This document shows positions 3,965 to 53,512 of a stretch of DNA of 64,000 nt, in pieces. This DNA comes from Negaprion brevirostris (Eukaryota): the NCBI GenBank assembly GCA_030324005.1, contig JARDVH010000073.1, forward strand, positions 94,957,878 to 95,021,877. Direction: 5' to 3'. A program made the translations under genes and the position numbers. A model generated the notes under the pieces. It did not search any database. It was not told where the DNA came from and worked only from the letters and a program-made list of their open reading frames with translations. How positions within the stretch are numbered: the first letter of the stretch is position 1; the number at the start of each line of letters is the position of its first letter.

Positions 3965-4318
3965 AAAGCAAGTTGGAATTGAGAGTGAGCCAAAGTCCTG
4001 TGGAAGTAAATCACAATGAAAATGTCCTCCTGCTGTGCGAAATTGCTCAACTCACTGGGGCTACGTTGAACTTGAAAAACTTGGGCGTATTATGGACTGT
4101 CACTCGTGGCACTGAAACATCAACAGCCTTTTCCTACGCTCCTGGAAATATAAAGGAAGCATGGCCAGAAGCCGAACTTTTGGAAAGCTCCATTGTACGT
4201 GGAAACATGTCACTGTTGCCAAGAAATGTCATATTTAAACACACCGGACAATATAAATGTGAAATTGTTATTCCACCAAATGATAAGGCATTTAAGATAG
4301 TGAAGTTTGAGGTTTTAG
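3965..4318 (+). CDS. B7-H6/NCR3LG1-like gene, IgV exon (first coding exon seen; leader not found in window)
   Basis: Acceptor tctgcag|3965 and donor 4318|gtcagc, phase 1-1. Translation (E)SKLELRVSQSPVEVNHNENVLLLCEI..LNLKNLGVLW..GNMSLL..GQYKCEIVIPPNDKAFKIVKFEVL has the V-set Cys/Trp/Cys. By recollection it aligns with human B7-H6 ([41 protein letters not shown]). Confidence 0.85.
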
Positions 4319-5976
4319 GTCAGCTGAATTATATGCAGAAACAGTAATTTTTTATAACTTGCAGTGCAACCAAATGCCAACGGTTTCACATTTAAGTTTG
4401 TCTTTATAGCTTTCGGAAGCATAATCTGGTGGAGGGAATGCCCTTAATTATAAAATCAAACTGCTGCAGATGTTGGAAATCCTGAAATGAAAACGCTGTA
4501 AATAATCAGCATGTCAGGGAGAATCTGTGGCGAGAGAAGCAGAGTTCGTTTCATCAGAATGGTTAAAAAATAAATAGTTTTTAACCTAGCGTTTAATGCT
4601 TTCTGACCTGATGCGTGTTGATATCAAGCTATGTAATTTAAATATGTTGCACATCATCAATTAGTTGAATCAATAGCAAGAGTAAAATTGGAAATATTGG
4701 CTGTGTAAGACAGCATTTTGAGAAGGAAATAAAAAAAACAAGTGTGTGTTTGGTTGAGGGAGTGACATTTGCCTCAAATAAGCACATTGTTGCCTAGGGA
4801 TAAACACTTAACTACTGTTAAATATGATTAATTATTTGTAAGAGCCATTGAAGTATTTTTCACATTTGGAACTGAAACAAATTAAAAGCGTGCACATACA
4901 TAGTTAGGCTTCTCTGAAATTTTAATGTTACTCTGTATGAAGAAAGAAGGAGCTTACATTTATCTAGTTCCTTTTACTTCCGGAAGATGTCATTCATTCA
5001 GTTATGTTGAGTCTGCAACATAGCAACAGGTCTTTTGGTCCACCTGGTCACGAAACCTTTTTGTTATGTTGAAGACAACTATCACCCTCAGCTCCTCGCT
5101 TCTAGAGAGAAAAGCCCAACCTGTTAAGTCTTTCTTGATAATTTTGCAGCTCTGGTATCATCCTTATGAACTGTATTGACACCTTCTCTGATGGCTGTAT
5201 ATTCATTGTATAGTATGGAAACCAGAACTGTGCATGGTACTTTGAATGGGGTATAATCATATTTCATTGCAAGTTTAACACTGTTTTTCAACTGTACTCT
5301 TCTATAAATGAATCCCAGTACTGCATTTGCCTTTTTTAATAGCCTTATTAACTAGAACTGCTTCTAGTGATTAATGTATCTGAACCCCATAGATTCCTCC
5401 TTCTCTACCTCACTTCCACTTATTATCCAGCCAGTATGTGGCCACCTTATTCTTCTTGCCAAAATGCACCAGCTCCCACTATTGCAGGCAAATGAATTTC
5501 AGTGATCCATTTTGTTTAATAGTTTATTGATATCATATATTTTTGTCACTTCTTCACTGAGATGTCTACAGCTTCCACTTTGCTGCCTTGTGCAAGTTTT
5601 GGAATTGTACTTTGGTTCCAGAGTCCAAATTGTTAATGTAAGTGGTAGACAAAGTGGTCCCTGCAGTGACGAGCACCACTTCCCATCTTTTGGCAGTCTG
5701 ATTAGCTACCCCTAAGCCCTACACAGTGCATTCTCTCTGGCCATCCATTCGGCCGTGTGTTCAACTCCCTTTTTAAATATAGGAATCACACCGGTTGTGC
5801 TCTATTTCTCTGGCACCATTCCATTTACAAATTATTTATTTATATAAATAGCTAACAGTGCCTCTGCTATTTCTTCACTAATTTAGTTTAGCACGCTCAT
5901 ATCCAAGCTAATGCATTACTGTTCAAGTGTAGCCACAATTGTTAGTGACACTAACTGTATCCTTCTATTTTGGCAG

Positions 5977-6303
5977 CACGTCCTACAGTGACTGTGATTT
6001 CAGAAAATATCGTGGAAGTTGGCACGGGGGGAGAGATGGCCTTGGGTTGTCAGTTAAGTGGATATTATCCTTGTGATAGCAGTGCTGAATGGTTTCAGAC
6101 AATCCCGTCACGAGGAGAGACAAGATTATTAAAGGACATTTGCATTTCCCCGCCAGTCAAAAACCCTGATGGAACATGTAACATAACCACTGAAGTTAGG
6201 TTGGAACCTCGTGTAGAAGACATTGGCAGCATTTTCGAATGCCATGTCACACACAAGACGTTTTCCGAGCCCCTCTCTGTAAAAGCTTCGGTGATTCTGA
6301 AAG
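5977..6303 (+). CDS. B7-H6/NCR3LG1-like gene, extracellular C1 exon
   Basis: Acceptor ttggcag|5977 and donor 6303|gtcagt, phase 1-1. ARPTVTV..LGCQLSGYYP..W..PVKNPDGTCNIT..EDIGSIFECHVTH is a C1-set domain of B7-H6/tapasin type (cf. B7-H6 SGFYP, PTIKNMDGTFNVT, YQCVVRH). Confidence 0.9.
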
Positions 6304-6929
6304 GTCAGTTGCAGTGACAAATGCAAAGTATAACTTTTTTTATTCAAAAACGCTTATCGTTATCCAATGTACTACAGTTTTTACTTCTTGGGGAAACAAC
6401 TAAATCAGAAACTTTTAGATGGATTTGTTTGATGCTGACAGCTAATGAATTTTGAACTTTCTTGTGTTTATTAAGATACGTTTTTACAAAAATGTTGGTA
6501 TTTAACTCAATCAACTTCTTTCTATTGATGTGATCTAATTAGATTACTTGTATATTATGAATAATTATTTTGTTACAGTTCTAAGCATATGGGAGGTTTA
6601 TCAAATTCATAAATATGTATTTTTAAATATAAAATTAGCATTCCATCTAATGAGTTGAACACCTTTTCCATACCAAGCATCTATTTCTGACCACTAGATA
6701 CATCTTGATGACTGCCTGATCTAGAGAAAGTTTAATTGATTTCAATTTTCCACTTCTTTATCTGAACAAATCTTTTGAATGGAAAATGATTGTTTCAGAG
6801 ACTTGGCTCCAATCTTACCTAAGATTTTTTTAATATAAAGTTGCAAATTATATACAGCACTGAAAGAGGCCATTCAGCCGACTATTCTGCTGGTGTTTAT
6901 AACCACACTGGTTGTAAGTTGGAGTAATT

Positions 6930-7810
6930 CACACTGTCTTTTTTAGTGGGAGTTCACACTAGAATCTCCCACACTTTGTGCAATGCAGAGGCCACCAGCG
7001 TGAATATCATTAGATTTCAGAGGGTGGGGAGAGGCTGAAAATCAACAGGCCTCTGCGCATGTGCAGTGGCCCTGAAGTGTCATCCTCTCATTTTCTGGCC
7101 AGCTAGGGACACCCGCAGTGCAGTCCCCTCCACCCCTCCACAGCCAAACCGTGGCCCCTCTTCCATTCATGGGCCAGCCCTGAACACCCCTGTCCTAGCC
7201 TGCCCCAATCTCCAGCTTCCCCACCTCCAGCAATCGCTACCTCCCCCCCACCGGCATCAGCAGACACCCCGGCTGAACCCCACCCCCTGTGCCCAGCCCG
7301 CCCCAATTGCTGGCCTGCCTCCAGCCCCCACTGATCCCAGTGCAGTAGGAACCCCCATCAATCACCCCCTTGGCACTGCCCCACACCCAACGGGCAGTGC
7401 AAAGGTGCCCCCAGATATGGGCACTTTGCCCCTTGGGCAGTGCCGTAGGCTGGCATCACCCCCTCCCCCCACCGCCCAATCCCTGGGGGGCCGCGATTTC
7501 CCCCCCTTTCATTCCAGCAGGGCCCGGTCGCTAGCTCGCCAAACGTGGCGTGTTGGGAGATGTTAGTGGGCCCGGTGAATTCAGTCCCAGGCCCGCAAAC
7601 AGCATTTAAATACCATGTAAAATACTATTTCAATGCTAGCCCTGCCTCCCAGCCGATTTCCAATGCCGCGCAGACTCCGCGGGAAATCTGAGCGCGGGAG
7701 ATATAAGCGCAGTGCGAACGCTTGCAGGAATCCCGCAAATTGGCCAACATACGATTCTGCTGGCCACTGTGCAAAAAAATTAGCGCAGCAGGATGGGAGA
7801 ATCACAGCCA
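6930..7810. mobile_element. GC-rich non-autonomous shark repeat (putative DNA-transposon/MITE-like)
   Basis: Abrupt GC-rich island. It shares blocks (cccttggcactgccc, gggcactttgcccttgggcagtgcc, ggccc..gaattcag) and a GGGAGAAT terminus with 8195-9240 and 33106-33662. Confidence 0.6.
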
Positions 7811-8194
7811 TTTAGTCTGAAATTGGGAGAATTCCACCCACTGATCCATTACTAAAGCTATTGTGAGAAACGCAGCTCACAGTCAAACAATTTAGTCGAG
7901 TCAAGTTCCGAAGGAGCAAGATATTTTATTTAGCGTTCTTGCAAGACTGGGTGTCCAAAAGATAGGCACACCTTACATCGAGTTTAAGCAGGCTTTTTAT
8001 ACTATTTCTATAAGCTTATTAATCAATTACACAATACGTTGTTCTCCCCTAATTGGTGGTCCCTATCCCATTTATGTGTTGTCATTCCCCTATTGNNNNN
8101 NNNNNNNNNNNNNNNNNNNNNNNNNNNNNNNNNNNNNNNNNNNNNNNNNNNNNNNNNNNNNNNNNNNNNNNNNNNNNNNNNNNNNNNNNNNNNN

Positions 8195-9240
8195 NGTCCC
8201 CACAGCCTGATTGTGGGCCCTCTGGCAATTCCCAGGCCAGCCTTGAACCCCCTTCCTGTCCTGGATGGCTCCGATCTCCAACAACTCCCCACATGTATTG
8301 TGAATACTCCCAGCCTGCCCGATTTTCAGCTCACCTCCCCCCAGCAGTCCCGATCTGTCTTGATTGCTGGCCTCCCTCCAGCCCCTATCAATCCCCATGC
8401 AGAGTGGCAACGGAACCCCCCAACAGGGCACACTCTCCTATAGGCCCCATCCCCTTGGCACTGCCCGAAGCCTGGTGGACAGTGCCAAAGTTTTCCATGG
8501 GTATGGGCACTTTGTCCCTTGGGCAGTGCCAGGGAGTAGAGGCTTGCATTGCCAGGGTCCCCATACCCAGGGGATGGCACCCTATACCACCCGACCCCCT
8601 GGGGGGGGCCCCAATTGCCTCCCCCTTCACTCCAGTGGTGTTGGGCTGCTAGTTCCCCGAAAGTGGGGAGCTAGACTGAACCCCGCTGGAATGAAATACT
8701 GGGGTGGCACAGTGATTAGCTGCCTCTCATCACCAGGGACCCGGGTTCGATTCCTAGCTTGGGCCACTGTCTGTGTAGAGTTTGCATGTTCTTCCCATGT
8801 CTGAATGGATTTCCCCCAGTTGTTCTGGTTTCGTCCCACAGTCTGAAAGATGTGCTAGTTGAGTGCGTTTACCCGAACAGGTGCCATTAGTATGGTGACT
8901 AGGGGAATTTCACAGTAACTTCGTTGCAGTGTTCATATAAGCCTTACTTGTGACTAATAAATAACTTTAAATACTCCTTGTGGGGTGGGAGATGTTAATG
9001 GGCCCAGAGAATTCAGTTCTGGGCCCTCTAATAGCATTAAAATGACATTAAAGTGAGATGTAAAGTACTTACCTGGTGTTCCCATCGTTTTCCAGCGCGA
9101 ATCAGCTGGCACCAGAAATCCAGTGCTGGGAGATGCGCACGTGGCGGGAATGCATGTGTGAATCCTACACATGTCTTGACGTGAGATTCTTCCACCACGC
9201 AGTGCTAGAAAATTAGCACGGCAGGGTGGGAGAATTGCCC
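8195..9240. mobile_element. Second copy of the GC-rich shark repeat, interrupted by a SINE
   Basis: Homologous to 6930-7810 and ends gggagaattgccc. The 5' part runs into an N gap. Confidence 0.6.
8701..8968 (+). mobile_element. HE1-like tRNA-derived SINE with 7-bp target-site duplication
   Basis: A-box-like ggtggcacagtg and B-box gggttcgattcc. It is flanked by aaatact at 8694-8700 and 8969-8975, and the uninterrupted site is visible in the copy at ~33430. Confidence 0.85.
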
Positions 9241-10126
9241 TCATTGTTTCATTTCTATCTTGTCCAACTGATCTGTAATTTGAAAGACCACTATCGGGTC
9301 ACCTACAAGTCTTCTGGTTTCCAAAGATGATGGCCCCAAGCTATTCAATATTTCATCAATAATCTGTTAGTTCTGGTACCATCCTTATAATTTTTTTTCC
9401 ACACTTTCTCCCATAATTGTGTGTCTCTTTTACTAGTACATGACCAGAACTGTGCATAATACACTGGGTGCAACCTGACCAGCTTCCTATACAAGTTTAA
9501 CAAATTCTGTACCTCTAGAAATAAATCCCAGAGTTTTCCTTACTTCTTAAATGCTTTTTGTTGCAATGCTGCTTTGAGCAATTTGTTCACTTCTTTGCTG
9601 AGATCCTCATGCAGTTCTACTCCATTGTGTTTTTATGATTGTAAAGTGCAGATGACGATTCTGTTTTTTCTTCACAAGTGCACCTCATTTATTGAGGCTA
9701 AAGTTTATTTTTAAATACCTGGTCTGCACATATTCCAATATCTTCTCTAATTATGTTGCAGTATTTTTCAGTGTTAGCTATGCCCTCTTGATGTTTGGTA
9801 TCAGTCGCAAGTTTTGATCTTAAGTTACTTGTTTTCAATTCCAAAACATCAGTGTAAATTATAAATAACAGTTTCAGCACTCATCCTTGTGAAACACTGC
9901 ATTTATGTTACAAGTAACCAGTTTTCCAAGTGACACAATTGGGGTACAAACAATATAAGATGTTTGGGTTTGAAAATAAATGCCACTTAGCTGTGAGCAC
10001 TGGCTGGCCCAGAGCTGTGCTAAATATTTATTGACTATTCTTTATCCTGTTCTACAATATTACGTGGGTGAATTGTGGTACAATTGAAACCAGTTGTGTG
10101 AGAAATTTGAAACTTTTCTTTTGCAG

Positions 10127-10243
10127 AAGCAGAAATTCGTCTGTCAACTTCATCAATAGTCGGAAGCGTGATTGCGAGTATTATTATTTCTGTTGCCTTA
10201 ATAGCGCTTGGAATTTTCCTCTTTATGCGGGTCCAATATAAAG
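10127..10243 (+). CDS. B7-H6/NCR3LG1-like gene, transmembrane exon
   Basis: Acceptor aacttttcttttgcag|10127 and donor AAG 10243|gtaagg; 117 nt, phase 1-1. Translation EAEIRLSTSS-IVGSVIASIIISVALIALGIFLFM-RVQYK gives a 24-residue hydrophobic helix followed by basic residues, with no stop. Not shown in this frame in the ORF track. Confidence 0.88.
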
Positions 10244-10829
10244 GTAAGGGTGCATTCTAGGCATGTAGGGNNNNNNNNNNNNNNNNNNNNNNNNNNNNNN
10301 NNNNNNNNNNNNNNNNNNNNNNNNNNNNNNNNNNNNNNNNNNNNNNNNNNNNNNNNNNNNNNNNNNNNNNNNNNNNNNNNNNNNNNNNNNNNNNNNNNNN
10401 NNNNNNNNNNNNNNNNNNNNNNNNNNNNNNNNNNNNNNNNNNNNNNNNNNNNNNNNNNNNNNNNNNNNNNNNNNNNNNNNNNNNNNNNNNNNNNNNNNNN
10501 NNNNNNNNNNNNNNNNNNNNNNNNNNNNNNNNNNNNNNNNNNNNNNNNNNNNNNNNNNNNNNNNNNNNNNNNNNNNNNNNNNNNNNNNNNNNNNNNNNNN
10601 NNNNNNNNNNNNNNNNNNNNNNNNNCAGTCTACCTAACTTTAGGCTATTTTTCTATGGTGTACAGATATATGTGTTAACAGCATCTTTACCTGTTGCTCA
10701 CACCATGGAGAATGTACCATTAACAGTTTGCAGGTTTTAGGTTAAATTGAAACTAGCCAAGTCGATTTTGCGCACGGCGTTTCTATGAGAATACCCCAGA
10801 GAAATGTTGCACCCCTCACCCCCAAGCTT

Positions 10830-11930
10830 TTCTTTCATTGAAAAAGATGCAATGCCTGGACTTGTTATTTTTGTTCACAGAGGACATGACCCTCTGTGAT
10901 TGTGTGAATAGCTGTAGTTTCTGGTAAGCGTAAGTGAGCCCCATTGTAAAAACCACCCCCCACCACTGCAACAGATGACCTTGAAATGGTTGTTATAAAT
11001 GACTGAAACAGCACAGTTTGGATTTTTAAGTAAGTGCTGCCTGATTCCAGAATTATGTTTAATGTTTGACCCTGTTTTCTGAGCTCTGCAAGCACTGGCT
11101 GATTGAGTGCAGTCCATACTCTGCCTGTTGAGAATAGCCAAAGGTATGTGCTGTTTGATATGATCCACCAGATATTGGAATATAAGGCCTGTATTCCTGG
11201 CATCTCACTGGCACAGGAACTCAAGTCACATTACTCATTGATCTTTTTGGCTTAATGGCACCATCCTGTTAGTGGTGAATACCACTCATTGCTACTGCAT
11301 GACAGCGGCTTGAAACAGATAGCTTCACCTGTTGTTCAAATTCTTTTGATACCTTGTCCTTCTAGGGTACCAGAATTGTTAACCTTGGGGCCTGTTCATG
11401 AGTTTGTCAGCAAGCAATGGCCTGATCAGGGTAGCCAATTTCCTGCAGGAAAGCTTTGATGTGGCCTTTCTTGGCATCAAGATTTCATGAGCACGTGGCT
11501 TGGGACTTATTACTGAGGTTGCCAAGAAGAGACATCTTGTAGGGTCTGGAGCTGTCGTGTATCGACATGTATATTCACCACAGAAAGAAGGCTTGTAGCA
11601 GTAGTAGTAAAAATAGGTAGTAGACAACTGGCAGATTTCTCAATTAGAAAATTGAGGAAAGGAAGCTCATTAGATTGTTCTACTTCAAAGGTGTATTTGA
11701 ATGTGGCATGGAGCCCATTAAGATGTTTAAGGAAATTCTTACCTGCAGCTTCAAATATAGCAAATGTTTAATCTACTTCTCAGAAGTATGAATGTGGTAG
11801 GCAGTTAGGGGTCATTCTCTTAAAGAAGTGCTTCTCCTGGAAACCAACAAAAATGTTAGCAAGAACTGGGCCTAGAAGTGATAAAGTTGAACTCAGATGC
11901 ACAAGTGGCTGGGTTTATAAGTTCAATGAA
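10830..11930 (-). mobile_element. Penelope-like element (GIY-YIG region) relic
   Basis: Minus ORF 10875-11168 IKQHIPLAILNRQ..SGIRQHLLKNPNCA..FKVI resembles the GIY-YIG C-terminus of Penelope-like elements (S.I.QHLL.N..CA). It is frameshifted. Confidence 0.6.
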
Positions 11931-12214
11931 TGTTGTGGGGGATTTATTGAATTCACAAATATGTATTTTTAAGTTTGAGATACATTCCATCTAATAAGTT
12001 GAATATCTCTTTCTGACCTTCAGATATGTCTTGATGACTGCATAATTCTTGAGAAATTTTTCAATTTTCCACTTCATTGCACGAACAAATCTTTTTAGTG
12101 AAAAATGATTCTGTGACCATTGTTCCCCATGGTTCACTGCATCCACATTTATATCGGTTGCCCAAGATGCACAAAAAGTTTTTTAAAAAATTCATTTATA
12201 GGAAGTGAACTTTG

Positions 12215-12770
12215 GCTAGGCCAGTGTTTATTTCCCATCTTGATTGAACCGTTGCAATCTCTGTGGTGTAGATACACCCACAGTGCTGTTAGGAAGAGCA
12301 TTCCGGGATTTTGCCCCAGTGACAGTCGGGATGGGATGTGATTTAGAGGGAGCTTCCAGATGACAGTGTTCCCATGTGACATGCACTCTTATCGTTATGG
12401 ATTGTAGCAGTTGTAAGTTTGGAAAGTGCTACCTAAGGAACCTTGGGTGTGTTCTGCAGTGCATCCTGTAGAAGGTACACAGCACTGCCACTGTTCATTG
12501 GTGGTGGCAGGATTGAATATTTGTGGAAGGGATCCCAATCATTGTCCAACTTCTTCAGTGTTGTTGGAGCTGCACTTATCCAGGTAACTAAAGATAGTCC
12601 ATCACACTCCTAACTTGTGTCTTGTAGATGGTGAATAGAGTTTAGGGAGTCAGAAGGTGAGTTACTTGCCACAGGATTCCTAGCCTCTGACCTGCCCTTG
12701 AAGCCACTGTATTTAAATGACTACTCTAGTTTCTGGTCAATTGCAACCCCCAGAATGTTGTTAGGAGATT
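12215..12770 (-). mobile_element. LINE 3' fragment of a second common shark family (also at ~24620-25220, 34650-35215, 51600-51720, 52600-52870, 59900-60060)
   Basis: Shared blocks gtgtagatacacccacagtgctgttagga..ttccaggattttg..cagtgacagtg across the listed copies. Confidence 0.55.
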
Positions 12771-13200
12771 TAGAGCTTTATGCATTATCTTGACTGACTC
12801 AGCACAACATGAATTGGCCAAATGGTTAAATGAGTTGCTGCAAACAATCCTGAGTGAAGTTTCTGATAAATACTTCACCTTCATAAAAATTAACAAGACC
12901 TGATGAGTGCAAGATGAAAAGCCTTTACAGTATATTCTCCTGGCCAGCAGCGATAATTATTTTTGTTGTTTCTCATTTATTCTTTAATGACCTATTATAT
13001 TTTGAAATTTTTTCTGTGCTCCATTACCAAAGATCTGCCTGTCTAGCACCCCTTCCAGGTGCTCTTTATATTTATCCTCACATCTTGAAACTTCTGAAAT
13101 AAAAGCAAAATACTGTGGATGCCAGAGATCTGAAATAAAATGCTGGAAAAACCTTTCTGAATGATCCAACTTGAAAATGCTTTGTTCTTTTTATTCCTAG

Positions 13201-16306: not shown

Positions 16307-17388
16307 NNNNNNNNNNNNNNNNNNNNNNNNNNNNNNNNNNNNNNNNNNNNNNNNNNNNNNNNNNNNNNNNNNNNNNNNNNNNNNNNNNNNNNNNNNNNNN
16401 NNNNNNNNNNNNNNNNNNNNNNNNNNNNNNNNNNNNNNNNNNNNNNNNNNNNNNNNNNNNNNNNNNNNNNNNNNNNNNNNNNNNNNNNNNNNNNNNNNNN
16501 NNNNNNNNNNNNNNNNNNNNNNNNNNNNNNNNNNNNNNNNNNNNNNNNNNNNNNNNNNNNNNNNNNNNNNNNNNNNNNNNNNNNNNNNNNNNNNNNNNNN
16601 NNNNNNNNNNNNNNNNNNNNNNNNNNNNNNNNNNNNNNNNNNNNNNNNNNNNNNNNNNNNNNNNNNNNNNNNNNNNNNNNNNNNNNNNNNNNNNNNNNNN
16701 NNNNNNNNNNNNNNNNNNNNNNNNNNNNNNNNNNNNNNNNNNNNNNNNNNNNNNNNNNNNNNNNNNNNNNNNNNNNNNNNNNNNNNNNNNNNNNNNNNNN
16801 NNNNNNNNNNNNNNNNNNNNNNNNNNNNNNNNNNNNNNNNNNNNNNNNNNNNNNNNNNNNNNNNNNNNNNNNNNCTTTAAGATGGAGGTTGATAGATTTT
16901 TGTTAGGTGAGGAAATCAGACCAAAGGTTATTGGGCGTAGAGGGGAATATGAAATGTGAAACATAACAGGCTTAAGGGGCTGAATGGCCAACTTCTATTT
17001 TGTTTGGAGTTAAGCTAGTGAACACCGATATCTAATTAGATGGTGGAACATATAGCTGGTCCCATGTTTCCAATTCCATCCTGAGTGACGTTATCTTTTT
17101 GTTATGCTTGTCCTGAATTTGGAATGGCACTGCTGGCGTGTCGGGGGATTGGTACGTGATAGAAACAAGAGCAGCAGCATGGGTTAGGATGCAGGAGGTA
17201 GAACAGAGAGCAGATCACTTGTATAACTTACAGAAAAATGAAAAGGTGTAAGATAATGGACACAATATTGTTTGCTTAATACATAAATAGATAATATTCT
17301 CTAATTATAAAAAGATGAACCAATAACATTTATCTTGAGAAGTTGTACCATTAAAACTGAATGCTTTGTGTCTTTTTTCCCTCTTTAG

Positions 17389-17751
17389 TTCCTCCTAAGT
17401 TGGCTAACATAATTAAACCTCCAGTTGTGCACCATAACAATTCTGTGATGCTGACTTGTCCGATAAATTTCTTCAAGCCACACCCTCTGAAGATCCTATG
17501 GTATAAAATAATAGATGGAAAGAAAATCCCTTTGCTGAAACACGATAATGGAGCTGAAGAGAATTTCTATTTGAAGGAATATACCCATTTAATGATTAAA
17601 TTTGATTATCCTGACCACACTCACAGTGTCTGCAGCATGCTGCTCTTTACTGCAACAATCCAAGAAGATGAAAACAGTCAGTATTCCTGTGAAGTTGGAC
17701 ACATTGGTTTGAAAGATCCAGTGGAGAAGTCTGTTCGACTGAATGCAAAAG
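17389..17751 (+). CDS. Post-TM C1-type Ig exon 2
   Basis: Acceptor ttttttccctctttag|17389 and donor 17751|gtaaca, phase 1-1. VPPKLANI..MLTCPINFFKP..ILW..HSVCSMLLF..YSCEVGH. Confidence 0.88.
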
Positions 17752-18309: not shown

Positions 18310-18490
18310 TTGACACATGAAGCAAGACTGGATCAACTGGGCTTGTACTCACTGTCATTTAAAGGAATGATGAGAGGGATTCTCATAGAAACATATAAAA
18401 GCCTGATGGGACTGAACAGGCCAGATGCAGGAAGAATGTTCCCGCTGTTGGGGAAGTCCAGAACTAGGGATCACAGTCTTAAGAATAACA
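18310..18490 (+). mobile_element. CR1 LINE fragment
   Basis: RLDQLGLYSL..RGILIETYK..RMFPLLGKSRTR matches the CR1 ORF2 C-terminus. Confidence 0.8.
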
Positions 18491-19528
18491 TCTACTAGTA
18501 TTGCAGTGAATTTTCACAACAGGCGCACCCAGAGTTTTATTTAATGAATGACACTGATGAGAAAAAGCTGGTAAGTGAGAGTTATGTCTGGGTTGAAAGC
18601 CATATTGTATGGGGTGGAGGTCAGAAGTGGCATTCCAGCATGCGCAGGTTGCTTGTGTGTATCCTACTTGCTCCCTTCAGTGCTGATGTCTGTATCAGCA
18701 GTGAAATGTCATGGATATAGATGGACATCCTGGAATTTGGTGGATGTGAAAAGGGTAGTGCTGCAGAATACAGCTCTGCCTCATGGCCCTGCAATTGCTC
18801 ACAATTCCAATTCCATTAAGGCAGCAATTTTTCAATTTACTGTCACTTATTCTATTATCTATTTATCACAGATATTTTTCTATTCAGATTTCCCATTTTT
18901 TTAAAATCCAGCTTCGTGAAGCTTTTGCTTTCCTTGCACATGGTGAGGTTCTGCTTTCTGTCTTCACTGTTCCATTAGATGCATTAGCCTTGTGCGGTTT
19001 TTTTGAAGGCTTGTTCTCAGTATTAATTAGTTTCTTTCATTTCATCAGGTCCTTATTGNNNNNNNNNNNNNNNNNNNNNNNNNNNNNNNNNNNNNNNNNN
19101 NNNNNNNNNNNNNNNNNNNNNNNNNNNNNNNNNNNNNNNNNNNNNNNNNNNNNNNNNNTTCTTTCATTTCATCAGGTCTTTATTGCATTGATATTTGTGA
19201 GAACTTGCTGTGTACATGGTGATCTTGGACATGTCAGAGTCATTTAAGTTCACATTGCTCAGCCTGCTATCCATAAGGTGTTGAAAAACTGCAGAGAATG
19301 TTAAAAGTGTGCTGACCTTTCTGGGAAACTGCAGCTAATATCCATGCATCCGTTATTGTGCAACCCAGAAGGACAGAATTGTGGGCGCATGCAACATAAA
19401 CCCACATGTCATCAGTGATCGAACAACAGAGGTCACCAGCTTCGACCTCCAACAGGACAGTGGATGGCACTCAACATTGCCCCTCATTGGGCACACACAA
19501 TCTGGGGTGCGATCGTGACCATTGGTTC

Positions 19529-19660
19529 CTGACAATGGAACCCATCGCAACAACCTTTCCACTGATATCTATTACAGGAGGCATCCCATTTCTCCTGGCA
19601 ATGGAATACATCGCAACAACCTTTCCACTAACATCTGTTGCAGGAGGCATCTCATTTCTC
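19529..19660. repeat. Two-copy 66-bp tandem duplication
   Basis: ctgacaatggaacccatcgcaacaacctttccactga..tttctc is repeated at 19595 as ctggcaatggaatacatcgcaacaacctttccactaa..tttctc. Confidence 0.85.
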
Positions 19661-20199
19661 CGCTCAGAAGCCACAGAATAGATAGTAAAACCAGACATCT
19701 CATTATAAGCTGTCCTTGTCATACAAGAGTAGCAATAGTGAAAAAAATGGAAGATTGTTGTGATAAGAAAGCTCAATGAGTTGGAACTAATGCCCTTACA
19801 TAGAGTTGATTCTATACCTTAACTTAGAATGGTTAATGTTGATGGAACACAGTGGAAAATGGTATTGCAGAATCTACTCCCTTCATCATTAAGAGTCCAA
19901 ACCTAAAATAATCACATCTTTTCACAGCTGTTAGTGGACCTGCTGTTCATTCCTAGTGTTTTTTACTTTCAATTCCAATATGCCATCTCTTTTACTTTTA
20001 CTTTTTTGTTGTAATTTATTCTATCAACATCACTAAAAACATACCATCAAGTCTTCATTGCATTGATGTTTGTGAGAACTTGCTGTGCACAAATTGGTTG
20101 CCGTATTTCCTAATTAATCAGTTGGAAAACATTTTGACGCTTTAAAAAAAATTCCTTTCCCATTCTGAATAATAATCAATCTCCTCCTGCACCACCTGT

Positions 20200-20420
20200 C
20201 TAGGATCCAGTTGTAGAGGGAGGAGCTGAGCCCTAGGCCACAGAATTTGGAGATGAGTTTTGTAGAAATAATGATGTTCGAGATTGAGCTGTAGTCAATA
20301 AATAGGAGTCTGACATAAGAGTCCTTGTTATCCAGGTATACGAGGGTTGAGTGTAGGGCTGAGGTGGTGGTGATTGCTGTGGACCTATTGCAGCGCTAGA
20401 TGAACTGTAGTGGATCTAAT
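20200..20420 (-). mobile_element. Rex1/Babar-type non-LTR retrotransposon RT fragment
   Basis: Reverse complement encodes [13 protein letters not shown].., the Rex1-clade RT motif ([15 protein letters not shown]). Confidence 0.6.
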
Positions 20421-20425
20421 CAATT

Positions 20426-20730
20426 GGGTGGCATGGTGACACATTGGTTAGCACTGCTGCGCCTCAGCACCAGGGACCCGATTTCAATTCCTGGCTTGGG
20501 TCACAGTCTGTGTGGAGTTTGCACATTCTCCTTGTGGCTGCATGGGTTTTTTCTGGGTGCTCTGGTTTCCTCCCACAGTCCAAAGACGTGCTGGTTAGGT
20601 GCATTGGCGGTGCTAAATTGTTCCTTGGTGGAGTGGAACAGGCGCCGGAGTGTGGTAACTAGGGGATTTTTACAGTAACTTCATTGTTGTGTTAATGTAA
20701 GCTGACTTGTGACAGTAATAAATACATTTT
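20426..20730 (+). mobile_element. HE1-like SINE
   Basis: ggtggcatggtgacacattggttagcactgctg..ggcttgggtcac..tgacagtaataaata. Confidence 0.85.
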
Positions 20731-20773
20731 AAAAGAATTAGAATAGAGTTTTAGAAACATACAACAAGGACAT

Positions 20774-21106
20774 CATAGAATCCTAGAGTGCAGAAAGAGG
20801 CCATTCGGCCCATCGAGTCTGCACCGACCTCAATCACACCCAGGCCCTACCCCCATATCCCTACATATTTTACCCGCTACTCCCTCTAATCTACGCACCT
20901 CAGGACACTAAGGGGCAATTTTAGCAAGGCCAATCAACCTACCCCGCACATCTTTGGACTGTGGGAGGAAACCAGAGCACCTGGAGGAAACCCACGCAGA
21001 CACGAAGAGAATGTGCAAACTCCACACAGACAGTGACCTGGCTGGGAATCGAACCCAGGTCCCTGGAGCTGTGAAGCAGCAGTGCTAACCACTGTGCCAC
21101 CATGCC
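20774..21106 (-). mobile_element. HE1-like SINE with CR1-type tail (tail-to-tail with the previous copy)
   Basis: Near full-length reverse copy ending gctaaccactgtgccaccatgcc. Confidence 0.88.
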
Positions 21107-21536
21107 ACCCATTGTGAGGAGGTACAATCAGAACAAGAAGGGGGTTAGAGTCCATTCTTTTCACAGTACAGATTTTTGCATTCTAGGAACATGTGTTCAG
21201 GGACAGGGAAGCGATTTGCAAGGTTACCACATTAATGTCTGCAAATTAAGAACACCTCGGCATACTGAAATATAAGTCGTGACCATTTTGTCCACCCAAA
21301 TAGTATCTGGTCAGAGTTAAGAGGGGAGCTGGGCGTTCACTCACCCACACCCCATTTTCGGGGCAAATCACTNNNNNNNNNNNNNNNNNNNNNNNNNNNN
21401 NNNNNNNNNNNNNNNNNNNNNNNNNNNNNNNNNNNNNNNNNNNNNNNNNNNNNNNNNNNNNNNNNNNNNNNNNNNNNNNNNNNNNNNNNNNNNNNNNNNN
21501 NNNNNNNNNNNNNNNNNNNNNNNNNNNNNNNNNNNN

Positions 21537-21838
21537 TCTTAATGCGATCATCAGTGAGCCAAGGAACCCTGTAATTGGAAAACAATTGACTTTGACCTGC
21601 AAAGTGCATTCATTTTACCCTAAAGATATTAGTGTTCAGTGGTTGAAAAATGAAGATGTTATTACAGATACAAAAACATCTGAAATAGTTAAAAATCCTG
21701 AAAGTGTGTTGTATGAACTTACCAGTTCATGCACATTTACTGCAACATTATCAGACCTAAGCAGTAAATATAAATGCCAGGTTCATCATGACAGTCTTCC
21801 ATATCCAAGGTTTGCAGAATATATTCCTGAAAGTTTAG
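21537..21838 (+). CDS. Post-TM C1-type Ig exon 3 (5' edge hidden in N gap 21373-21536)
   Basis: Open frame from the gap edge: LNAIISEPRNPVIGKQLTLTCKVHSFYPKDISVQWLKN..LYELTSSCTF..YKCQVHHDSL. Donor 21838|gtatgt, phase 1. Acceptor not visible. Confidence 0.85.
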
Positions 21839-22458
21839 GTATGTTTATTCTTAGTTTTAAAAATATAAAAATGAGGATGTCTTATTTATAATCAAATTAT
21901 CTTGCATTCTAATTTCACAAAATGTATTTAGTAAAATTAATGATGTTGTTCCCCACCTTTAACTTTTCATGCTTGAATGTAGTTATCAGCTGTTTCTGTT
22001 GTGCAAAGAGCACTACTGGAATTTAAAAGTGTTCTAATGGTACAAAATGGTTAAGTGCACCTCATGGTACCCCAAATAGGTTTGTAAGAGAATTTCACTA
22101 CAACAAGTAATTATTCAGGGCAGATTTCAGCTGAGACACAGGTTATGCTGGTAGCTATCTTACTTTGGCTGTGGTAAAATCAGCTTACTGTCATCAAAAT
22201 GAAATTCAGTTTTGAAGTTATTGGTGCGTTGATGGGAATTTTTTGTTCCTGGGGCCTTTATAAGTTTTTGGCATGCTGTACTTAAAATAATCTAGGTGAA
22301 GTGGAGAGGAAAGTCACAAAACCGGGTGTAAGAAATTTGGTTACATTCTTACTATGCATATTAAAATTACATCTGGTATTGGTNNNNNNNNNNNNNNNNN
22401 NNNNNNNNNNNNNNNNNNNNNNNNNNNNNNNNNNNNNNNNNNNNNNNNNNNNNNNNNN

Positions 22459-22640
22459 CCTTAATTACGGATTCAAGCATTTTTCCTACAACAGACGTTA
22501 AACTAACCGGCCTATAATTCCCTGCCTTTTGCCTGTTACCCTTTTTAAACAGCGGCGTAACTTTAGCCTTTTTCCAATCTTCCGGCACTTCCCCGGAATC
22601 CAGCAAGGTTTGGAAAATAATCACTAATTTTCCTACTGTG
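22459..22640 (-). mobile_element. CR1 RT fragment
   Basis: SGEVPEDWKKAKVTPLFKKGNRQKAGNYRPVSLTSVVGKMLE. Confidence 0.85.
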
Positions 22641-23113
22641 GAATGACAAATCAGCAGCACGATTATTACGTTGTCTTTTTTCCCAGTGTTTTAAATTATA
22701 TATAACCCAGTTACTCTGTTGCAAGTTCAGGTAATGTGCCAAAATCCTAGTGACAATCTTCTGATAGTTATGACTATTCTCAGTTGAAGCTACAATTTTC
22801 TTGATCTGCATGATGTCCTAGTGGTAAAATATAGTTAATTTTTGGAAAGAAAGGCTGAGTAACTATTTCTGTGGAGTTTTGCAATGATAGACTAACCTGG
22901 AGAATAACATTAATTTAAAATTTTAAAACTCGTTTGCATAAGTGGGGCTATCTAAATGTAGCACCAAATGTGAATAGCCTACTTGTTTGCTGCTTTCCAG
23001 TTACAAGCCTTGAATAAATTCAACATAGTTTGTTACACAATTTTTGGTATTTATGTTTGCAACAAATATTGGAATGTTGTACTTCAGTTTTTCTTAATGT
23101 ATTTCTATTTCAG

Positions 23114-23440
23114 TATCTTTTCCCAAAGTCTCTGAAATTACCTGCAATCCAGCTACCCCTGAACTAGGGAGAGAATTGACTTTAACCTGTAAGATAAGTG
23201 AATTTTATCCAGAGGATATTCAAGTTGAATGGTTCAGAAATGAGGTGCGAATAAATGAAGGTGTAAAACACAGAATAGTTACGGGAACATCACAGTGTGA
23301 AAATGGTCTGTACATCAACATCTCCACGGTAACCATGACTCCAAGTTCTGATGATCATCAAGCTGAATATAGAATTGAAGTCTGTCATTCCAAATCTTCA
23401 ACCAAACCTTTTAAGCAATGTTATCAACTACTTCTTAAAG
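23114..23440 (+). CDS. Post-TM C1-type Ig exon 4 (F-strand Cys displaced)
   Basis: Acceptor atttctatttcag|23114 and donor 23440|gtgagt, phase 1-1. VSFPKVSEITCNP..LTLTCKISEFYPEDIQVEWFRN..NGLYINISTV..AEYRIEVCH. Confidence 0.88.
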
Positions 23441-25313
23441 GTGAGTTTCTTTTTCTGTGTGGTGAAGCGAGCCATGTTGGTAATTTTTCAAAGACCTTAA
23501 TGAGGAAGCTATTGTGAATTGATTACAGGATTTGTCTCTTGCTCTGTGAGAGGTTGACAAAAATGTATTTGAAATACTAAAACATCACCTTAATTGTGCA
23601 GTTATATCTTCCCTTTCATTTTATTTGTTCTGAATGAGTGGCTCAATTTGCCACTGTTTAATTAACATTATTGAAAAGTATATTTTTCAAACATACAAAT
23701 TAAGAGCAAGAGTAGGCCCCTAGAGGCCACTCCTAATTATACAAAATTTGCCAATGTTAGTACCATTTTCTGCTTCATCTTGGCCTGTGGAGCCTAAGGT
23801 AAACATGTGCAACAATGAAAGGTCTGCTTACTATGTTTAACTTTTGAATATTGTTACAATGAGGTTAGCAGGAGTGAACTGACTCCTTTCTTTATCGCAT
23901 TCCTGAGTTAATTGTGACAGAATTTGAATTTTAAAGGAAGCTGCTGTGGCCAATGCAATTATATATTTAATTGTGTATAGCTCGGTGGAAGAAATAAGCC
24001 AGCCAAGTTATTCAAGTTAGTTTTTTAATTGCTGAAGCTTAATCAGGTATAAGTGCAGAAAAAAATTAACAGAAGTTTTAAAATGTGCCAATATGTTTTA
24101 ATAGCCCTGATGCAAAAACAACATGCACCAAACATGCACAAAATGAGAAAAAATTCTAACTGCCAGATCTTAAAATAAAATTGGCCAAGTGGCAAGTCAG
24201 AAAAAAAAATTGACATATCGTCCAAGAGGACTTCTGTTTTAGAGCTGAAGAATCCCATTCTGCGTTGGAGCAGTTACCTGCAATCATGGCTGATTTAGAA
24301 TTCTCCTTTGAGAACTCTTGGTTTGTAGCAATAAAGTCTCAAATTACAGACAGCTCAGCTTTGATGAGAGAGGTTTCAGAAGAGAGATGGGCTAACTTTC
24401 TGATTGTCTTACATCCAGCATATTTTTTTCACCCAAGAGCTGGAACATGTGACCCCTCTCTGAGAGCTGCATAGATTAAGGGTCTCTACAAAAGCAGCTG
24501 ATATCCTCCACTAATTCAGCGTAGTGGCTGCTATAGCCAGTATCCTTTGGTTAGAAAAAAAATGTTCAGCCGATCATGTTATAGATGAATATTTTATATA
24601 ACATTTCTTCACAACAGTATGAAGGAAAACCTGACCACATCCCCTTGATGTTCAATGGCATTATCATCACTGAATCCCCACCATCACTGTCAATATCCTG
24701 GAGTCACCAATGGCCAGAAACTCTATTGGATAAGCCACATAAATGTCTCAGCCACAAGAGATTTGATACTCTGTGGTGAGTGGCTCACCTGACTCACCAG
24801 GAACTTTCCACTTCTGCAAAGCTGCGATTGAATACTGTTTGTGTAGCTCTTTGGGTGCACTTCAGCATAAATGAAGAATCTCACCATTAACTAGTACAGG
24901 CTACCGAATTGACACCCTGTCTAGTATAAATGTTCTCTTATTCCACCTGTGGTGTACTGTGGGTGCAATGTGAACTATGTACAGGAAACATTGCAACAAG
25001 TTGTCAAAACTGCCCAAACCTGTGACCTTCAACACCTGGAAGGACATGATTTGGACATAGAATGCCGTTCCTTCTACACCTAGGCCAAATTCCTGAAATT
25101 CCCTACCTGTATGCTGGTTCCCTACCTATAATCTACGGGAACCTGATACAGCAGTTTATCACCTCTTTGAGGGTGAATGGAGTTGAGTAACAAATAGCAG
25201 CCTTGTCAATATGACCTGTCCAAAAAATAATTAAAATGACATGTTGGCAGATAGGATGTGGCTTAGTTTGGTCTTTTGTATTAATTAAATATATTATTTT
25301 TCTCTGTTTATAG

Positions 25314-25628
25314 GCTCGCCAAAATTTTCAAAGATCAAGATAAAGCCAGAGAACCCTGTGTATGGCCGGCCTTTACTTCTGTCGACTTCAGTGTATGGAA
25401 TTCCCCATAACGATGTTACAGTTGAATGGTATAAAGCATCTGAGCGCATTAAAGATGTCAAAAATTCAAATCCTGAGCGTAGCAGAGAAAACACGTACAA
25501 ATTAGACAGTCACCTGGAGTTTATAGTGACTGCAGAAGACTTTGAAAGAGATTTATACTTTGTGTACAAAGACAATTCTAAAATGGATGTACCTGTATTC
25601 AAAAGACGTATTCAACTGCCACTTAAAG
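25314..25628 (+). CDS. Post-TM C1-like Ig exon 5 (cysteine-free)
   Basis: Acceptor tctctgtttatag|25314 and donor 25628|gtgagt, phase 1-1. GSPKFSKIKIKPENPVYGRPLLLSTSVYGIPHNDVTVEWYK..NTYKLDSHLEFIVTAEDF..QLPLK keeps the strand pattern and Trp of its neighbours but has no Cys. Confidence 0.8.
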
Positions 25629-27181
25629 GTGAGTGTATGTCATTCGTTTATCTGTATATATGTTTGGAAAAGCAGGTTTTGTTGATAATTCATATGAAAA
25701 TAAATATATAATTGAAGATGATCACCCTGTTTTGCTGAACAACAAAGGAATAGTTTTCATTATTCACCTCACGTACAGTTGCAAACGAACCTTTCGTGGG
25801 TTTCTCAGGAGAGTTTTCCCAGCTTCATCTAAATTGGCCCAATTTAAATTAAGCTGGGGCAATAACTGTCTGTGTAACTCTTTGGGTGCACTTCAGCAAC
25901 AATGAAGAATCTCACCATTAACTAAAAACAGGCTAATGGGAGAATTGCAGGGTAAATACACGGAGTTATGGCGATAGGGCCTGGGTAGGATTGTTGTCGG
26001 TGCAGGCTGGATGGGCTGAATGGTCTCCTTCTGCACTGTAGGGATTCTATGGAAAGTGCAAGCGATGCACCCAAACAACAGCCAAAACGTTCTAGCACTA
26101 CTGATACAACAATTGTGGATCGTGTTTGCCTTCCATTTTCCCACTAATAACAGAATAGCAACTCCTTCATCACCTTGACTCCCCCTCTGTGTAGGGATTC
26201 TTCCTGCAGCCACTGGTCTGTGGTGTGCTTTCATTGATGCCTCCCAGCTTTTGATCGCTGTCATAATCCTTGTCAGCCATCCTGATGTGAAACAGTACGC
26301 AGAATTTTAACAGTTTGCTAAAGTTAAAAGTTAAAGTTTATTTATTAATCACAAGTAAGGCTTACATTAACACTGCAATGACGNNNNNNNNNNNNNNNNN
26401 NNNNNNNNNNNNNNNNNNNNNNNNNNNNNNNNNNNNNNNNNNNNNNNNNNNNNNNNNNNNNNNNNNNNNNNNNNNNNNNNNNNAGGGCTTCTATGATTCT
26501 ATAATCTTAGATGGACTCTATTAGCATGGAATCTGAGACATCTGTGAACAGGTCTAGTAGCCTGCAGACTTCAACAAGATTGAAGGATCTTCACTGATGC
26601 GTGCAGATATCAAAGCTGGAAGTAAAAACAAAAATAAATATAATTCACATTAAAAGCATACAAGAAGCTCAAATAAACATATGGGATCAATGGAATTATG
26701 AAAAATGTACAAAACAGAAATGCTATATAAAAATATCATTAAATTTTCATATTTCTTCTGAAGCACTGAGACTCCACACTTGTCAAAATTAATTTATAGT
26801 GCAGTCACTATAAACTCCAGATGACTGTCTAAAGTTATGGTTAATCCTGATTGAGCAGGCCAACCTTTTCATTTATTTTTAAAATGAGAATAGTGGATAA
26901 ATTAACTCAAGGTTTAAGCTGTGATAGTGATTTCTGTGCAGATTTCTGTGCAGATTCCATTGGCGAAGCCAAAGGTGGGGCAGGATATCACAGATAATAT
27001 TTCATGGTGCAAGTGAATTTTTATTATTTTATACCACTCTTCGGAATTTAAAATAAATGTTCATCTTGAATAGTTACGGAGAAAGCTTTTTAAATCCTTA
27101 AAACCATAAAAATAAATGTATTTTTAGGGAGTCTGATTGCAGTTGATATTTTGTTACATTTTGTTTCTGCATTTTTCACAG

Positions 27182-27489
27182 CTGTGACTCCCAAAGTGTC
27201 AGAAATCAAGTGTCACCCTGCTCATCCCACAAATGGTGAAAATGTAACTCTTACTTGCATGGTTGAACATTTTTGCCCAGTGGACATACATATTCTTTGG
27301 AGCAAGGGATGGACGGAATACAGGGATAAGCAAAGTGTCGAAACACCCAGAATTGACAGCGAGGGACTTTATTCCACAGTTACGAAGTTGTCTGTCACCG
27401 CAAATGAAGGTACAGCAGAATACAGCTGTGAAGTTCGGCATGCGAAAACCAATGATATTATAGAGAAGATGTTCACTCTGTGTGTTTAG
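27182..27489 (+). CDS. Post-TM C1-type Ig exon 6, last coding exon (stop TAG 27487-27489)
   Basis: Acceptor atttttcacag|27182. AVTPKVSEIKCHP..VTLTCMVEHFCPVDIHILW..EGLYSTVTKLSV..YSCEVRH..MFTLCV*. The stop is immediately followed by donor gtatga. Confidence 0.88.
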
Positions 27490-53453: not shown

Positions 53454-53512
53454 TGGATCAGTTCAAATCAGAGTTTCTTCCTCACTCTGTGGCTCTGGAT
53501 TAACAGCTTCAG

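What the first reader, a model, noticed from the sequence alone, without database searches (positions are those of the whole stretch)
3965..27489. B7-H6-like receptor with six C1 immunoglobulin domains behind the transmembrane helix (V-C1-TM-C1x6)
Seen: nine same-strand exons with canonical splice sites, all phase 1 and mutually in frame. They are V (3965-4318), C1 (5977-6303), TM (10127-10243), then six C1-type exons (13201, 17389, ~21537, 23114, 25314, 27182) ending in a stop, with no second hydrophobic segment. The TM is followed by R..K (positive-inside rule), which implies type I topology. Known: C1-set domains are normally extracellular or lumenal modules of Ig, TCR, MHC, tapasin, SIRP and some B7 members. 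B7-H6 is the NKp30 ligand, and in human its cytoplasmic tail is Gag-like. Inference: this gene encodes a receptor with a ~680-aa cytosolic array of C1 domains, an inverted IgSF architecture that could act as a scaffold, an intracellular sensor or a cleavable effector. I know of no characterised example, but cannot exclude that it exists among uncharacterised gene models.
Basis: partly seen in the sequence, partly recalled or inferred. Interest (0 to 1): 0.9.

Follow-up and report, generated by a model that had tools for sequence, protein, structure and literature searches.

The report
B7-H6 relative with cytosolic C1 string
This shark gene encodes a relative of the NK-cell ligand B7-H6 with six antibody-type (C1) domains behind its only membrane anchor, likely inside the cell where such domains are not expected, and gene models with this layout occur from chimaeras and sharks to lungfish and amphibians.

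Summary
Nine in-frame, phase-1 exons encode V-C1-TM-C1x6; a candidate leader exon lies 5.5 kb upstream of the window. Full-length 941-986 aa orthologue models exist in sharks, rays and chimaera, and one is a contiguous ORF on a 3.9-kb, transcript-like contig. The V-C1 part matches human B7-H6 best by sequence and fold. The gene lies in a five-gene cluster beside nucleobindin, PI3K and RPS13 exons, as human NCR3LG1 does (recalled). Of 150 top homologues, 112 have Ig-TM-Ig with 1-14 post-TM domains. Three sequence signatures point to a cytosolic array: positive-inside charge (101 of 112), glycosylation sequons at background level behind the TM, and the canonical disulfide pair in only 267 of 525 post-TM domains versus 124 of 135 pre-TM. 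The array lacks the antibody pairing face, so it is likely a monomeric string serving as a scaffold. Topology, partners and NKp30 binding are untested, and I obtained no RNA reads. TM-skipped isoform models exist. The window gene is an ancient sister paralogue of B7-H6 proper. Ten literature searches found no description, but the key 2012 B7-evolution paper could not be read.

The parts
3965..4318 (+). V-set exon, B7-H6-like; keeps the FG-loop Pro (the candidate leader exon lies outside the window, at G000:C73:94952300-94952363)
   Evidence: 3 of 3 PDB hits at E<=0.01 are B7-H6; leader:
5977..6303 (+). Pre-TM (extracellular) C1 exon
10127..10243 (+). Transmembrane exon, followed by R..K
   Evidence: KD 2.94, the only TM-like segment
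13201..13623 (+). Post-TM C1 domain 1 (140 aa, long insertion)
17389..17751 (+). Post-TM C1 domain 2
21537..21838 (+). Post-TM C1 domain 3 (5' end in an N gap)
   Evidence: the equivalent model region aligns to residues 25-122 of a single-chain MHC-I trimer (read as its beta-2-microglobulin part), rmsd 2.1 over 98 residues
23114..23440 (+). Post-TM C1 domain 4; F-strand Cys replaced by Ile/Val in 17 of 17 subfamily-A proteins
25314..25628 (+). Post-TM C1 domain 5; no cysteine in the window protein
27182..27489 (+). Post-TM C1 domain 6, ending in a stop at about the same position as in orthologues

Best explanation
The gene encodes a B7-H6-family protein with a V-C1 head, one membrane helix and six C1 domains behind it; the six domains likely lie in the cytosol as a monomeric string that is predicted to act as a protein-binding scaffold controlling where and when the V-C1 head is displayed to an NKp30-type receptor. 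Shown: exon structure, domain identity, single TM, B7-H6 kinship, cluster position, and position-wise conservation of the six-domain array between cartilaginous fish and lobe-finned vertebrates. Inferred (about 0.85): cytosolic location. Inferred (about 0.75): the domains do not pair like antibody C domains. Inferred (about 0.55, given cytosolic): the string is a scaffold for host trafficking or clustering partners. Untested: NKp30 binding and every partner.
For: One ORF: RefSeq/GenBank models of 966-986 aa in five sharks and 890-974 aa models in further sharks, rays and chimaera. P0180 is a 949-aa V-C1-TM-C1x6 protein held only from Logan, longest contig 3,886 bases, so it can hardly come from intron-containing DNA. 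Five B7-H6-like genes lie in this genome's cluster; in four of them (this one included) a TM exon precedes c1, in the fifth no TM exon was found but a 1.8-kb gap lies there. Topology: net charge after the TM +2.5 versus -0.4 before, higher after in 101 of 112. N-sequons 1.41 per 100 aa before the TM (O/E 1.98) versus 0.56 after (O/E 1.13), higher before in 102 of 112. Canonical Cys pair in 98 of 100 V, 124 of 135 pre-TM C, 42 of 43 control extracellular C, but 267 of 525 post-TM domains. An alignment-free check gives the B-strand Cys in 225 of 361 post-TM versus 114 of 125 pre-TM and 35 of 35 control, the replacements being mostly L/V/F/Y/W/I. Pairing face: the residue after the B-strand Cys is hydrophobic in 31 of 35 control domains but in 12% of 361 post-TM domains. 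The c2-c4 region aligns to the linear SIRP-alpha ectodomain (Z 15.3, rmsd 7.2, 290 residues). A conserved role is suggested by post-TM domains being about as conserved as V among 15 chondrichthyan orthologues (14-26% invariant columns versus 15% for V) and by position-wise groups for array positions 1-6 (SH-aLRT 82-98 for positions 2-6; position 1 shares an 89 branch with position 2; quick tree). Kinship: B7-H6 is the top PDB hit (E 1.4e-19) and top fold match (Z 19.5, rmsd 2.3, 210 residues).
Against: I have no RNA reads and no topology experiment. In this subfamily c2 and c3 keep both cysteines in 17 of 17 proteins, c6 in 16 and c1 in 14. One post-TM sequon (c2 N444) is present in 12 of 15 orthologues, and five more in 7-8 of 15. 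The sequon contrast is weaker in subfamily A alone (O/E 1.62 versus 1.11). Isoform models lacking only the TM exon exist in 2 of 9 isoform groups compared, one of them a subfamily-A orthologue. The sequences are related, so the p-values are inflated; the control is only 5 unnamed proteins. Human Thr127, an NKp30 contact, is Pro here. No partner is identified, so the scaffold role is an inference from anatomy.
Confidence: 0.5

Rival explanations
1. The cytosolic C1 string is a sensor or bait. It binds pathogen or stress-induced cytosolic proteins and switches on display of the V-C1 head (inside-out), as the B30.2 tail of butyrophilin BTN3A1 does for phosphoantigens.
For: Domain number varies from 1 to 14 with lineage-specific internal duplications. 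The genes sit in a tandem cluster with a broken duplicate exon, and IFITM genes lie next door. Human B7-H6 is tumour- and inflammation-induced (passages of PMC6514059). BTN inside-out sensing is established knowledge.
Against: Subfamily A keeps exactly six post-TM domains in all 17 aligned members from chimaera to lungfish and caecilian, and its post-TM domains are about as conserved as V. I had no coding sequences for a selection test.
Confidence: 0.2
2. The functional product is the TM-skipped, secreted V-C1-C1x6 chain, a soluble multi-Ig decoy; the C1 string then works outside the cell.
For: All exons are phase 1, so skipping keeps the frame. RefSeq isoforms XP_030056930.1 (caecilian, subfamily A) and XP_067902349.1 (horn shark) lack just the TM exon. 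Three representatives join the first C1 directly to c1. Four of six domains mostly keep both cysteines in subfamily A. Soluble human B7-H6 exists (passage of PMC6514059).
Against: 15 of 15 chondrichthyan orthologue proteins, the transcript-like P0180 among them, contain the TM. Sequons behind the TM are near background level, and c4 and c5 lack the pair in 17 of 17.
Confidence: 0.12
3. The array is cytosolic but drives clustering by C1-C1 pairing, as antibody constant domains do.
For: C1 domains are pairing modules in Ig, TCR and MHC (established knowledge). Human B7-H6 and NKp30 ectodomains are monomers (passage of PMC3135353), so avidity would have to come from elsewhere. The human tail is homologous to Gag, a self-assembling protein (established knowledge).
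Against: The outward B-strand positions are polar (11-12% hydrophobic at C-1, C+1, C+3) versus 89% at C+1 in control domains. Pairing through another face is not excluded.
Confidence: 0.1
4. The model fuses two genes, or the C-terminus is lumenal through an unusual topology.
For: N gaps at 10271-10625 and 16307-16874 cannot be read. TM read-through gives a short tail with a stop. Most support comes from predicted gene models.
Against: Contiguous P0180. An Ig-TM-Ig layout recurs in 112 of 150 homologues. No leader was found before c1, and there is no second hydrophobic segment.
Confidence: 0.05

Closest known systems
Human B7-H6 (NCR3LG1), the NKp30 ligand
   Same: V-C1-TM type I layout; best PDB sequence and fold match; neighbours RPS13, a PI3K gene and nucleobindin; Gly62, Gly83, Val125, Pro128 and Lys130 of the 11 listed NKp30 contacts align to the same residues.
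   Different: The tail is six C1 domains instead of a Gag-homologous domain. Thr127 is Pro and the FG loop is one residue longer. Subfamily-B paralogues with the same array match human B7-H6 better (newt 3e-38, coelacanth 2e-26, chimaera 4e-24 versus 1e-19), so the window gene is likely a sister paralogue.
Butyrophilins (BTN3A1/BTN2A1)
   Same: B7-like V-C ectodomain (Z 15.1) with a folded cytosolic domain right after the TM.
   Different: The cytosolic module is B30.2/PRYSPRY (established knowledge); Pfam finds none in 12 of 12 family members scanned.
Cytosolic Ig strings (titin, myosin-binding protein C, filamin-type)
   Same: Tandem Ig domains in a reducing compartment with frequent disulfide loss (established knowledge); titin I65-I70 is the top Foldseek row for the whole model, at TM only 0.19.
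   Different: Those are I-set or filamin folds in soluble proteins; here Pfam C1-set scores highest for all six domains and they hang on a membrane anchor.
Shark UrIg2, IgW/IgD heavy chains and SIRP
   Same: V plus many C1 domains (UrIg2: VJ, nine C1, TM; passage of PMC12227049).
   Different: Their C1 domains precede the TM, keep the disulfide (42 of 43 in the control set) and, in Ig, pair; the Ig-like controls group apart from the post-TM domains in the quick tree, on a weak branch.

Membership tests
B7-H6/NCR3LG1 family | Leader, V-set, C1-type domain and single TM on phase-1 exons | tested here: met
   the leader assignment is a candidate
B7-H6/NCR3LG1 family | Ectodomain closest to B7-H6 among solved structures | tested here: met
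   E 1.4e-19 top hit; Z 19.5, rmsd 2.3, 210 aligned, versus PD-L1 15.9
B7-H6/NCR3LG1 family | Synteny with RPS13-PIK3C2A-NUCB2 (human order recalled) | tested here: met
   RPS13 exon C73:94.314 Mb (-), PI3K_rbd exon 94.445 Mb (-), nucleobindin exons 94.548-94.558 Mb (+), cluster 94.666-94.985 Mb; one-sided only
One-to-one orthologue of human NCR3LG1 | KCNJ11 on the other side (human order recalled) | tested here: not met
   Kir-type hits on C73 lie at 59.4 and 84.6 Mb; IFITM genes follow instead; search counts are lower bounds
B7-H6/NCR3LG1 family | NKp30 contact residues | tested here: inconclusive
   5 of 11 contacts identical by pairwise alignment, Thr127 not; FG-loop Pro in 86 of 114 family proteins
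B7-H6/NCR3LG1 family | Binds NKp30 and triggers NK cells | not tested
   No shark NKp30 was fetched; needs an experiment
One-to-one orthologue of human NCR3LG1 | Closest non-mammalian relative of the human ectodomain | tested here: not met
   Subfamily-B proteins score higher against human B7-H6 and keep the T-P-x-K loop; the human sequence was not in my trees
C1-set Ig domains (PF07654) | Pfam C1-set above the gathering cut-off, C1 fold | tested here: met
   6 of 6 post-TM exons; AF2 beta-sandwiches, mean pLDDT 81 for the orthologue model; c3 matches an MHC-I single-chain C1 region at rmsd 2.1
C1-set Ig domains (PF07654) | Canonical B-F disulfide cysteines | tested here: inconclusive
   Present in c1, c2, c3, c6; absent in c4 and c5; 267 of 525 family-wide
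C1-set Ig domains (PF07654) | Extracellular or lumenal location | not testable with these tools
   Sequence signatures point to the cytosol; needs a topology assay
Antibody-type paired C1 domains | Hydrophobic ABED pairing face | tested here: not met
   12% of 361 versus 31 of 35 hydrophobic after the B-strand Cys; one position only
Butyrophilin | Cytosolic B30.2 domain | tested here: not met
   None in 12 of 12 proteins

The most novel reading that the evidence does not exclude
The ancestral gnathostome B7-H6 carried a cytosolic string of C1-set domains, the first cytosolic use of the adaptive-immunity C1 fold. This string is an inside-out sensor that reads the state of the cytosol (infection or stress) and licenses display of the NK-activating head. 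The human lineage replaced it with a retroviral Gag-like module, and TM-exon skipping lets the same string also be secreted.
Probability: 0.2. Interest if true: 0.9.

Novelty: new variant of a known kind. Interest (0 to 1): 0.72.

Why it matters
C1-set domains are treated as extracellular or lumenal modules of Ig, TCR, MHC, tapasin and SIRP. A family that has kept them on the cytosolic side since before cartilaginous and bony fish split would change that rule and give a natural set of C1 domains that fold with few or no disulfides, of practical interest for intracellular antibody design. It also reframes the odd Gag-like tail of human B7-H6 as a likely replacement of an older folded tail, and makes the role of the B7-H6 tail in NKp30 activation testable by tail swaps, including in frogs and newts.

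Tried and rejected
Complex prediction for two copies of c1-c3 (residues 288-652 of P0001) gave no answer, score 0.00 in 2 of 2 runs, alignment not used; this is no evidence either way. A single-sequence AF2 model of c5 was poor (pLDDT 48) and was not used. The search for short amniote B7-H6 with the newt ectodomain found 0 of 470 candidates at E<=1e-15, so I did not trace where the array was lost; birds, lizards and mammals are unsampled. The caecilian (E<=1e-17) and one frog protein (E<=1e-14) had no PDB hit at those strict cut-offs, and the turtle protein hit B7-H3 before B7-H6; the bichir/frog/turtle group is therefore only loosely tied to B7-H6. The ESM Atlas gave unnamed Ig-like chordate clusters at 0.92. 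Earlier scan findings: nothing in three look-ups. Literature: ten searches showed no description of the array in listings or in the passages read. Flajnik et al. 2012 (PMC3709836) and Ohta and Flajnik 2015 (PMC4594805) are not held. Only one supplementary file of the elephant shark paper was searchable, with no hit; unseen supplements may bear on novelty. Rejected: a hidden leader between TM and c1 (none in readable DNA); the AATAAA sites at 13098 and 13134 as a gene end (they sit in what I recall as a common shark repeat, just before the c1 acceptor); a frameshifted last exon (orthologues end at about the same place). The domain tree is the quick tree only; the careful search did not finish.
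Full report
1. Observation. They are stop-free, mutually in frame and phase 1, with canonical splice sites wherever readable; the c3 acceptor lies in an N gap. Pfam calls the first exon V-set and 7 of 7 C exons C1-set above the curated cut-off. The spliced pieces have one hydrophobic 19-mer (KD 2.94; next best 1.14), followed by R..K. A scan for any AG..GT phase 1-1 open exon of 285-432 nt between 10244 and 30000 finds, on the + strand, only candidates starting at the five readable C1 acceptors. A candidate leader exon lies upstream of the window at G000:C73:94952300-94952363, in a CpG-rich stretch; a 5,004-N gap lies between it and the window.

2. One gene or two. The c1 exon retrieves 967-974 aa 'uncharacterized' proteins of Mustelus, Cetorhinus and Scyliorhinus, with cluster members in Carcharodon and a second Scyliorhinus. 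The window's V, C and TM exons are 84-93% identical to the Mustelus protein, so the window is from a related shark. A second search lists 14 close proteins of 890-974 aa, 13 named as sharks, rays or Callorhinchus and one unnamed. That one, P0180 (949 aa), is held only from Logan with a longest contig of 3,886 bases and reads V-C1-TM-C1x6 without a break; such an ORF can hardly be genomic when the introns are kilobases long, so I read it as a transcript (inference). A chimaera paralogue entry, UniRef100_V9K7L7, has the same layout; that such entries come from mRNA is recalled, not shown. No leader-like exon was found between TM and c1 in readable DNA.

3. Kinship. Human B7-H6 is the top PDB hit of the Mustelus protein (E 1.4e-19), and all 3 hits of the window's V exon at E<=0.01 are B7-H6. 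The AF2 model (19-row alignment, mean pLDDT 81) matches B7-H6 at TM 0.84-0.87 and Z 19.5, rmsd 2.3 over 210 residues, ahead of PD-L1 at 15.9. On contig C73 an RPS13 exon (94.314 Mb, -), a PI3K_rbd exon (94.445 Mb, -) and nucleobindin exons (94.548-94.558 Mb, +; PDB 1snl E 1.9e-11) precede the cluster. This is the human RPS13-PIK3C2A-NUCB2-NCR3LG1 order (recalled; 11p15.1 for B7-H6 from a passage of PMC2715080). Naming the PI3K gene PIK3C2A rests on position only. No Kir-type gene was found near the other side; IFITM genes follow. The cluster (94.666-94.985 Mb) holds five B7-H6-like genes, all with c1-type exons; four show a TM exon before c1, and in the fifth a 1.8-kb gap lies where it would be.

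4. The family. A whole-library phmmer found 1,099 proteins at E<=0.001 and listed the best 150. Of these, 102 are V..TM..Ig, 10 are Ig..TM..Ig without V, 27 have no TM, 6 have several, and 5 end in a TM; post-TM Ig counts run from 1 to 14. The 20 representatives I looked up and the hits come from chimaera, sharks, rays, bichir, reedfish, a teleost (Prochilodus), coelacanth, lungfish, caecilian, newt, frogs and a turtle; the names are 'uncharacterized', 'hypothetical', 'unnamed', 'Ig-like domain-containing' or, once, 'hemicentin-1-like'. Quick trees (SH-aLRT only, 108 and 215 columns) group array positions 1-6 by position across cartilaginous and lobe-finned species and mostly split each position into subfamily A (window gene, chimaera, caecilian, lungfish) and B (chimaera, ray, coelacanth, newt, frog). 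Both the six-domain array and the A/B split therefore likely predate the shark-bony fish divergence. B members match human B7-H6 better and often keep its T-P-x-K loop, so the window gene is likely a sister paralogue. A third group (bichir, some frogs, turtle) is more loosely attached.

5. Topology. With a leader and one TM, the C-terminus should be cytosolic (established rule). Three family-wide signatures agree. Net charge in the 12 residues after the TM averages +2.5 versus -0.4 before, higher after in 101 of 112. N-sequons are enriched before the TM (374 in 26,536 aa, O/E 1.98) and near background after it (390 in 69,085 aa, O/E 1.13), higher before in 102 of 112; the control gives O/E 1.37. 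The B-F cysteine pair is kept in 98 of 100 V, 124 of 135 pre-TM C and 42 of 43 control C domains, but in 267 of 525 post-TM domains; 24 post-TM, 2 pre-TM and 9 control rows with a gap were dropped. Extra cysteines run at 1.83 per 100 aa post-TM versus 0.62 and 0.25. An alignment-free motif check agrees (225 of 361 versus 114 of 125 and 35 of 35), with hydrophobic replacements. The control is five unnamed proteins ending in a TM, three of which look like Ig heavy chains (my reading). Against: in 17 subfamily-A proteins c2 and c3 always keep the pair, c6 in 16 and c1 in 14, although c4 and c5 never do; the sequon contrast is smaller (O/E 1.62 versus 1.11); one c2 sequon is present in 12 of 15 orthologues. 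The sequences are related, so I rely on effect sizes, not p-values. Isoform models that lack only the TM exon occur in 2 of 9 isoform groups compared, so a secreted form may coexist.

6. Mechanism. The residue after the B-strand Cys, part of the antibody pairing face (established knowledge), is hydrophobic in 31 of 35 control domains but in 12% of post-TM and 11% of pre-TM domains; human B7-H6's ectodomain is a monomer (PMC3135353, passages). The first post-TM domain starts a median 11 residues after the TM, domains abut with short linkers, and c2-c4 align to the linear SIRP-alpha ectodomain. I read the tail as a membrane-anchored monomeric string, roughly 25 nm if extended (estimate at about 4 nm per domain). 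Its conservation, comparable to V among 15 orthologues, with fixed motifs in c2, c4, c5 and c6, fits stable host partners better than an arms race in this subfamily. I therefore commit to a scaffold that governs trafficking, clustering or display of the head (0.5 overall). Five of the 11 listed NKp30 contacts align to identical residues, including Pro128, but Thr127 does not; NKp30 binding is untested. Rivals: cytosolic sensor (0.2), secreted form as the main product (0.12), C1 pairing (0.1), mis-model or lumenal tail (0.05).

7. What is known. Human B7-H6 has a Gag-homologous intracytoplasmic domain (PMC2715080, passage). UrIg2 has nine C1 domains before its TM (PMC12227049, passages). Ten searches (listings and abstract starts) and passages of PMC6514059, PMC13262535, PMC11599192, PMC8144714 and PMC10751288 did not describe a post-TM C1 array. 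The two papers most likely to mention it, Flajnik et al. 2012 and Ohta and Flajnik 2015, were not available, and only one supplementary file of PMC3964593 could be searched. I put the chance of a prior brief mention at about one in three (judgement). The proteins are in public databases as uncharacterised models.

8. Verdict. A real, old and apparently uncharacterised architectural variant of the B7-H6 family. The gene structure is shown, the cytosolic location is likely (about 0.85), and the function is inferred. Novelty: new variant of a known kind. Interest 0.72.

Noticed in passing
window 53504-53860 (+), 60930-61271 (+); G000:C73:95096083 (-): IFITM/CD225 exons downstream of the cluster (Pfam CD225 E 2e-8 for the first; the second looks like an IFITM C-terminal exon by eye).
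   Followed up: partly
G000:C73:94792516 (-): A near-identical copy of one nucleobindin exon, with its intron flank, sits inverted inside the B7-H6-like cluster (original at 94557987, +); likely carried along by a local duplication.
   Followed up: no
G000:C73:94882600-94911260 (-): An inverted paralogue close in sequence to the gene at 94.81-94.83 Mb, with an extra c2-c3 pair whose c2 copy has an in-frame stop; no TM exon found, with a 1.8-kb gap in that intron.
   Followed up: partly
G000:C73:94920499 (-): A V exon of butyrophilin/MOG-like appearance (by eye), different from the B7-H6 V exons, inside the cluster.
   Followed up: no
P0160 (XP_030056930.1), P0196 (XP_067902349.1): RefSeq isoforms lacking only the TM exon; others (P0007, P0195, P0198) lack the leader and V domain.
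   Followed up: partly
P0057 (Heterodontus, 1,515 aa): A paralogue whose tail is seven c1-type repeats spaced 167 aa apart.
   Followed up: no
window 27182-27489: c6 has FCP in place of the usual FYP, invariant in 15 of 15 chondrichthyan orthologues; the stop codon is directly followed by a donor-like GTATGA, and a Carcharodon isoform model extends past this point.
   Followed up: no
G000:C140:39496400, C140:13738563, C68796, C54277: Weaker Ig-exon matches outside the cluster; not examined.
   Followed up: no
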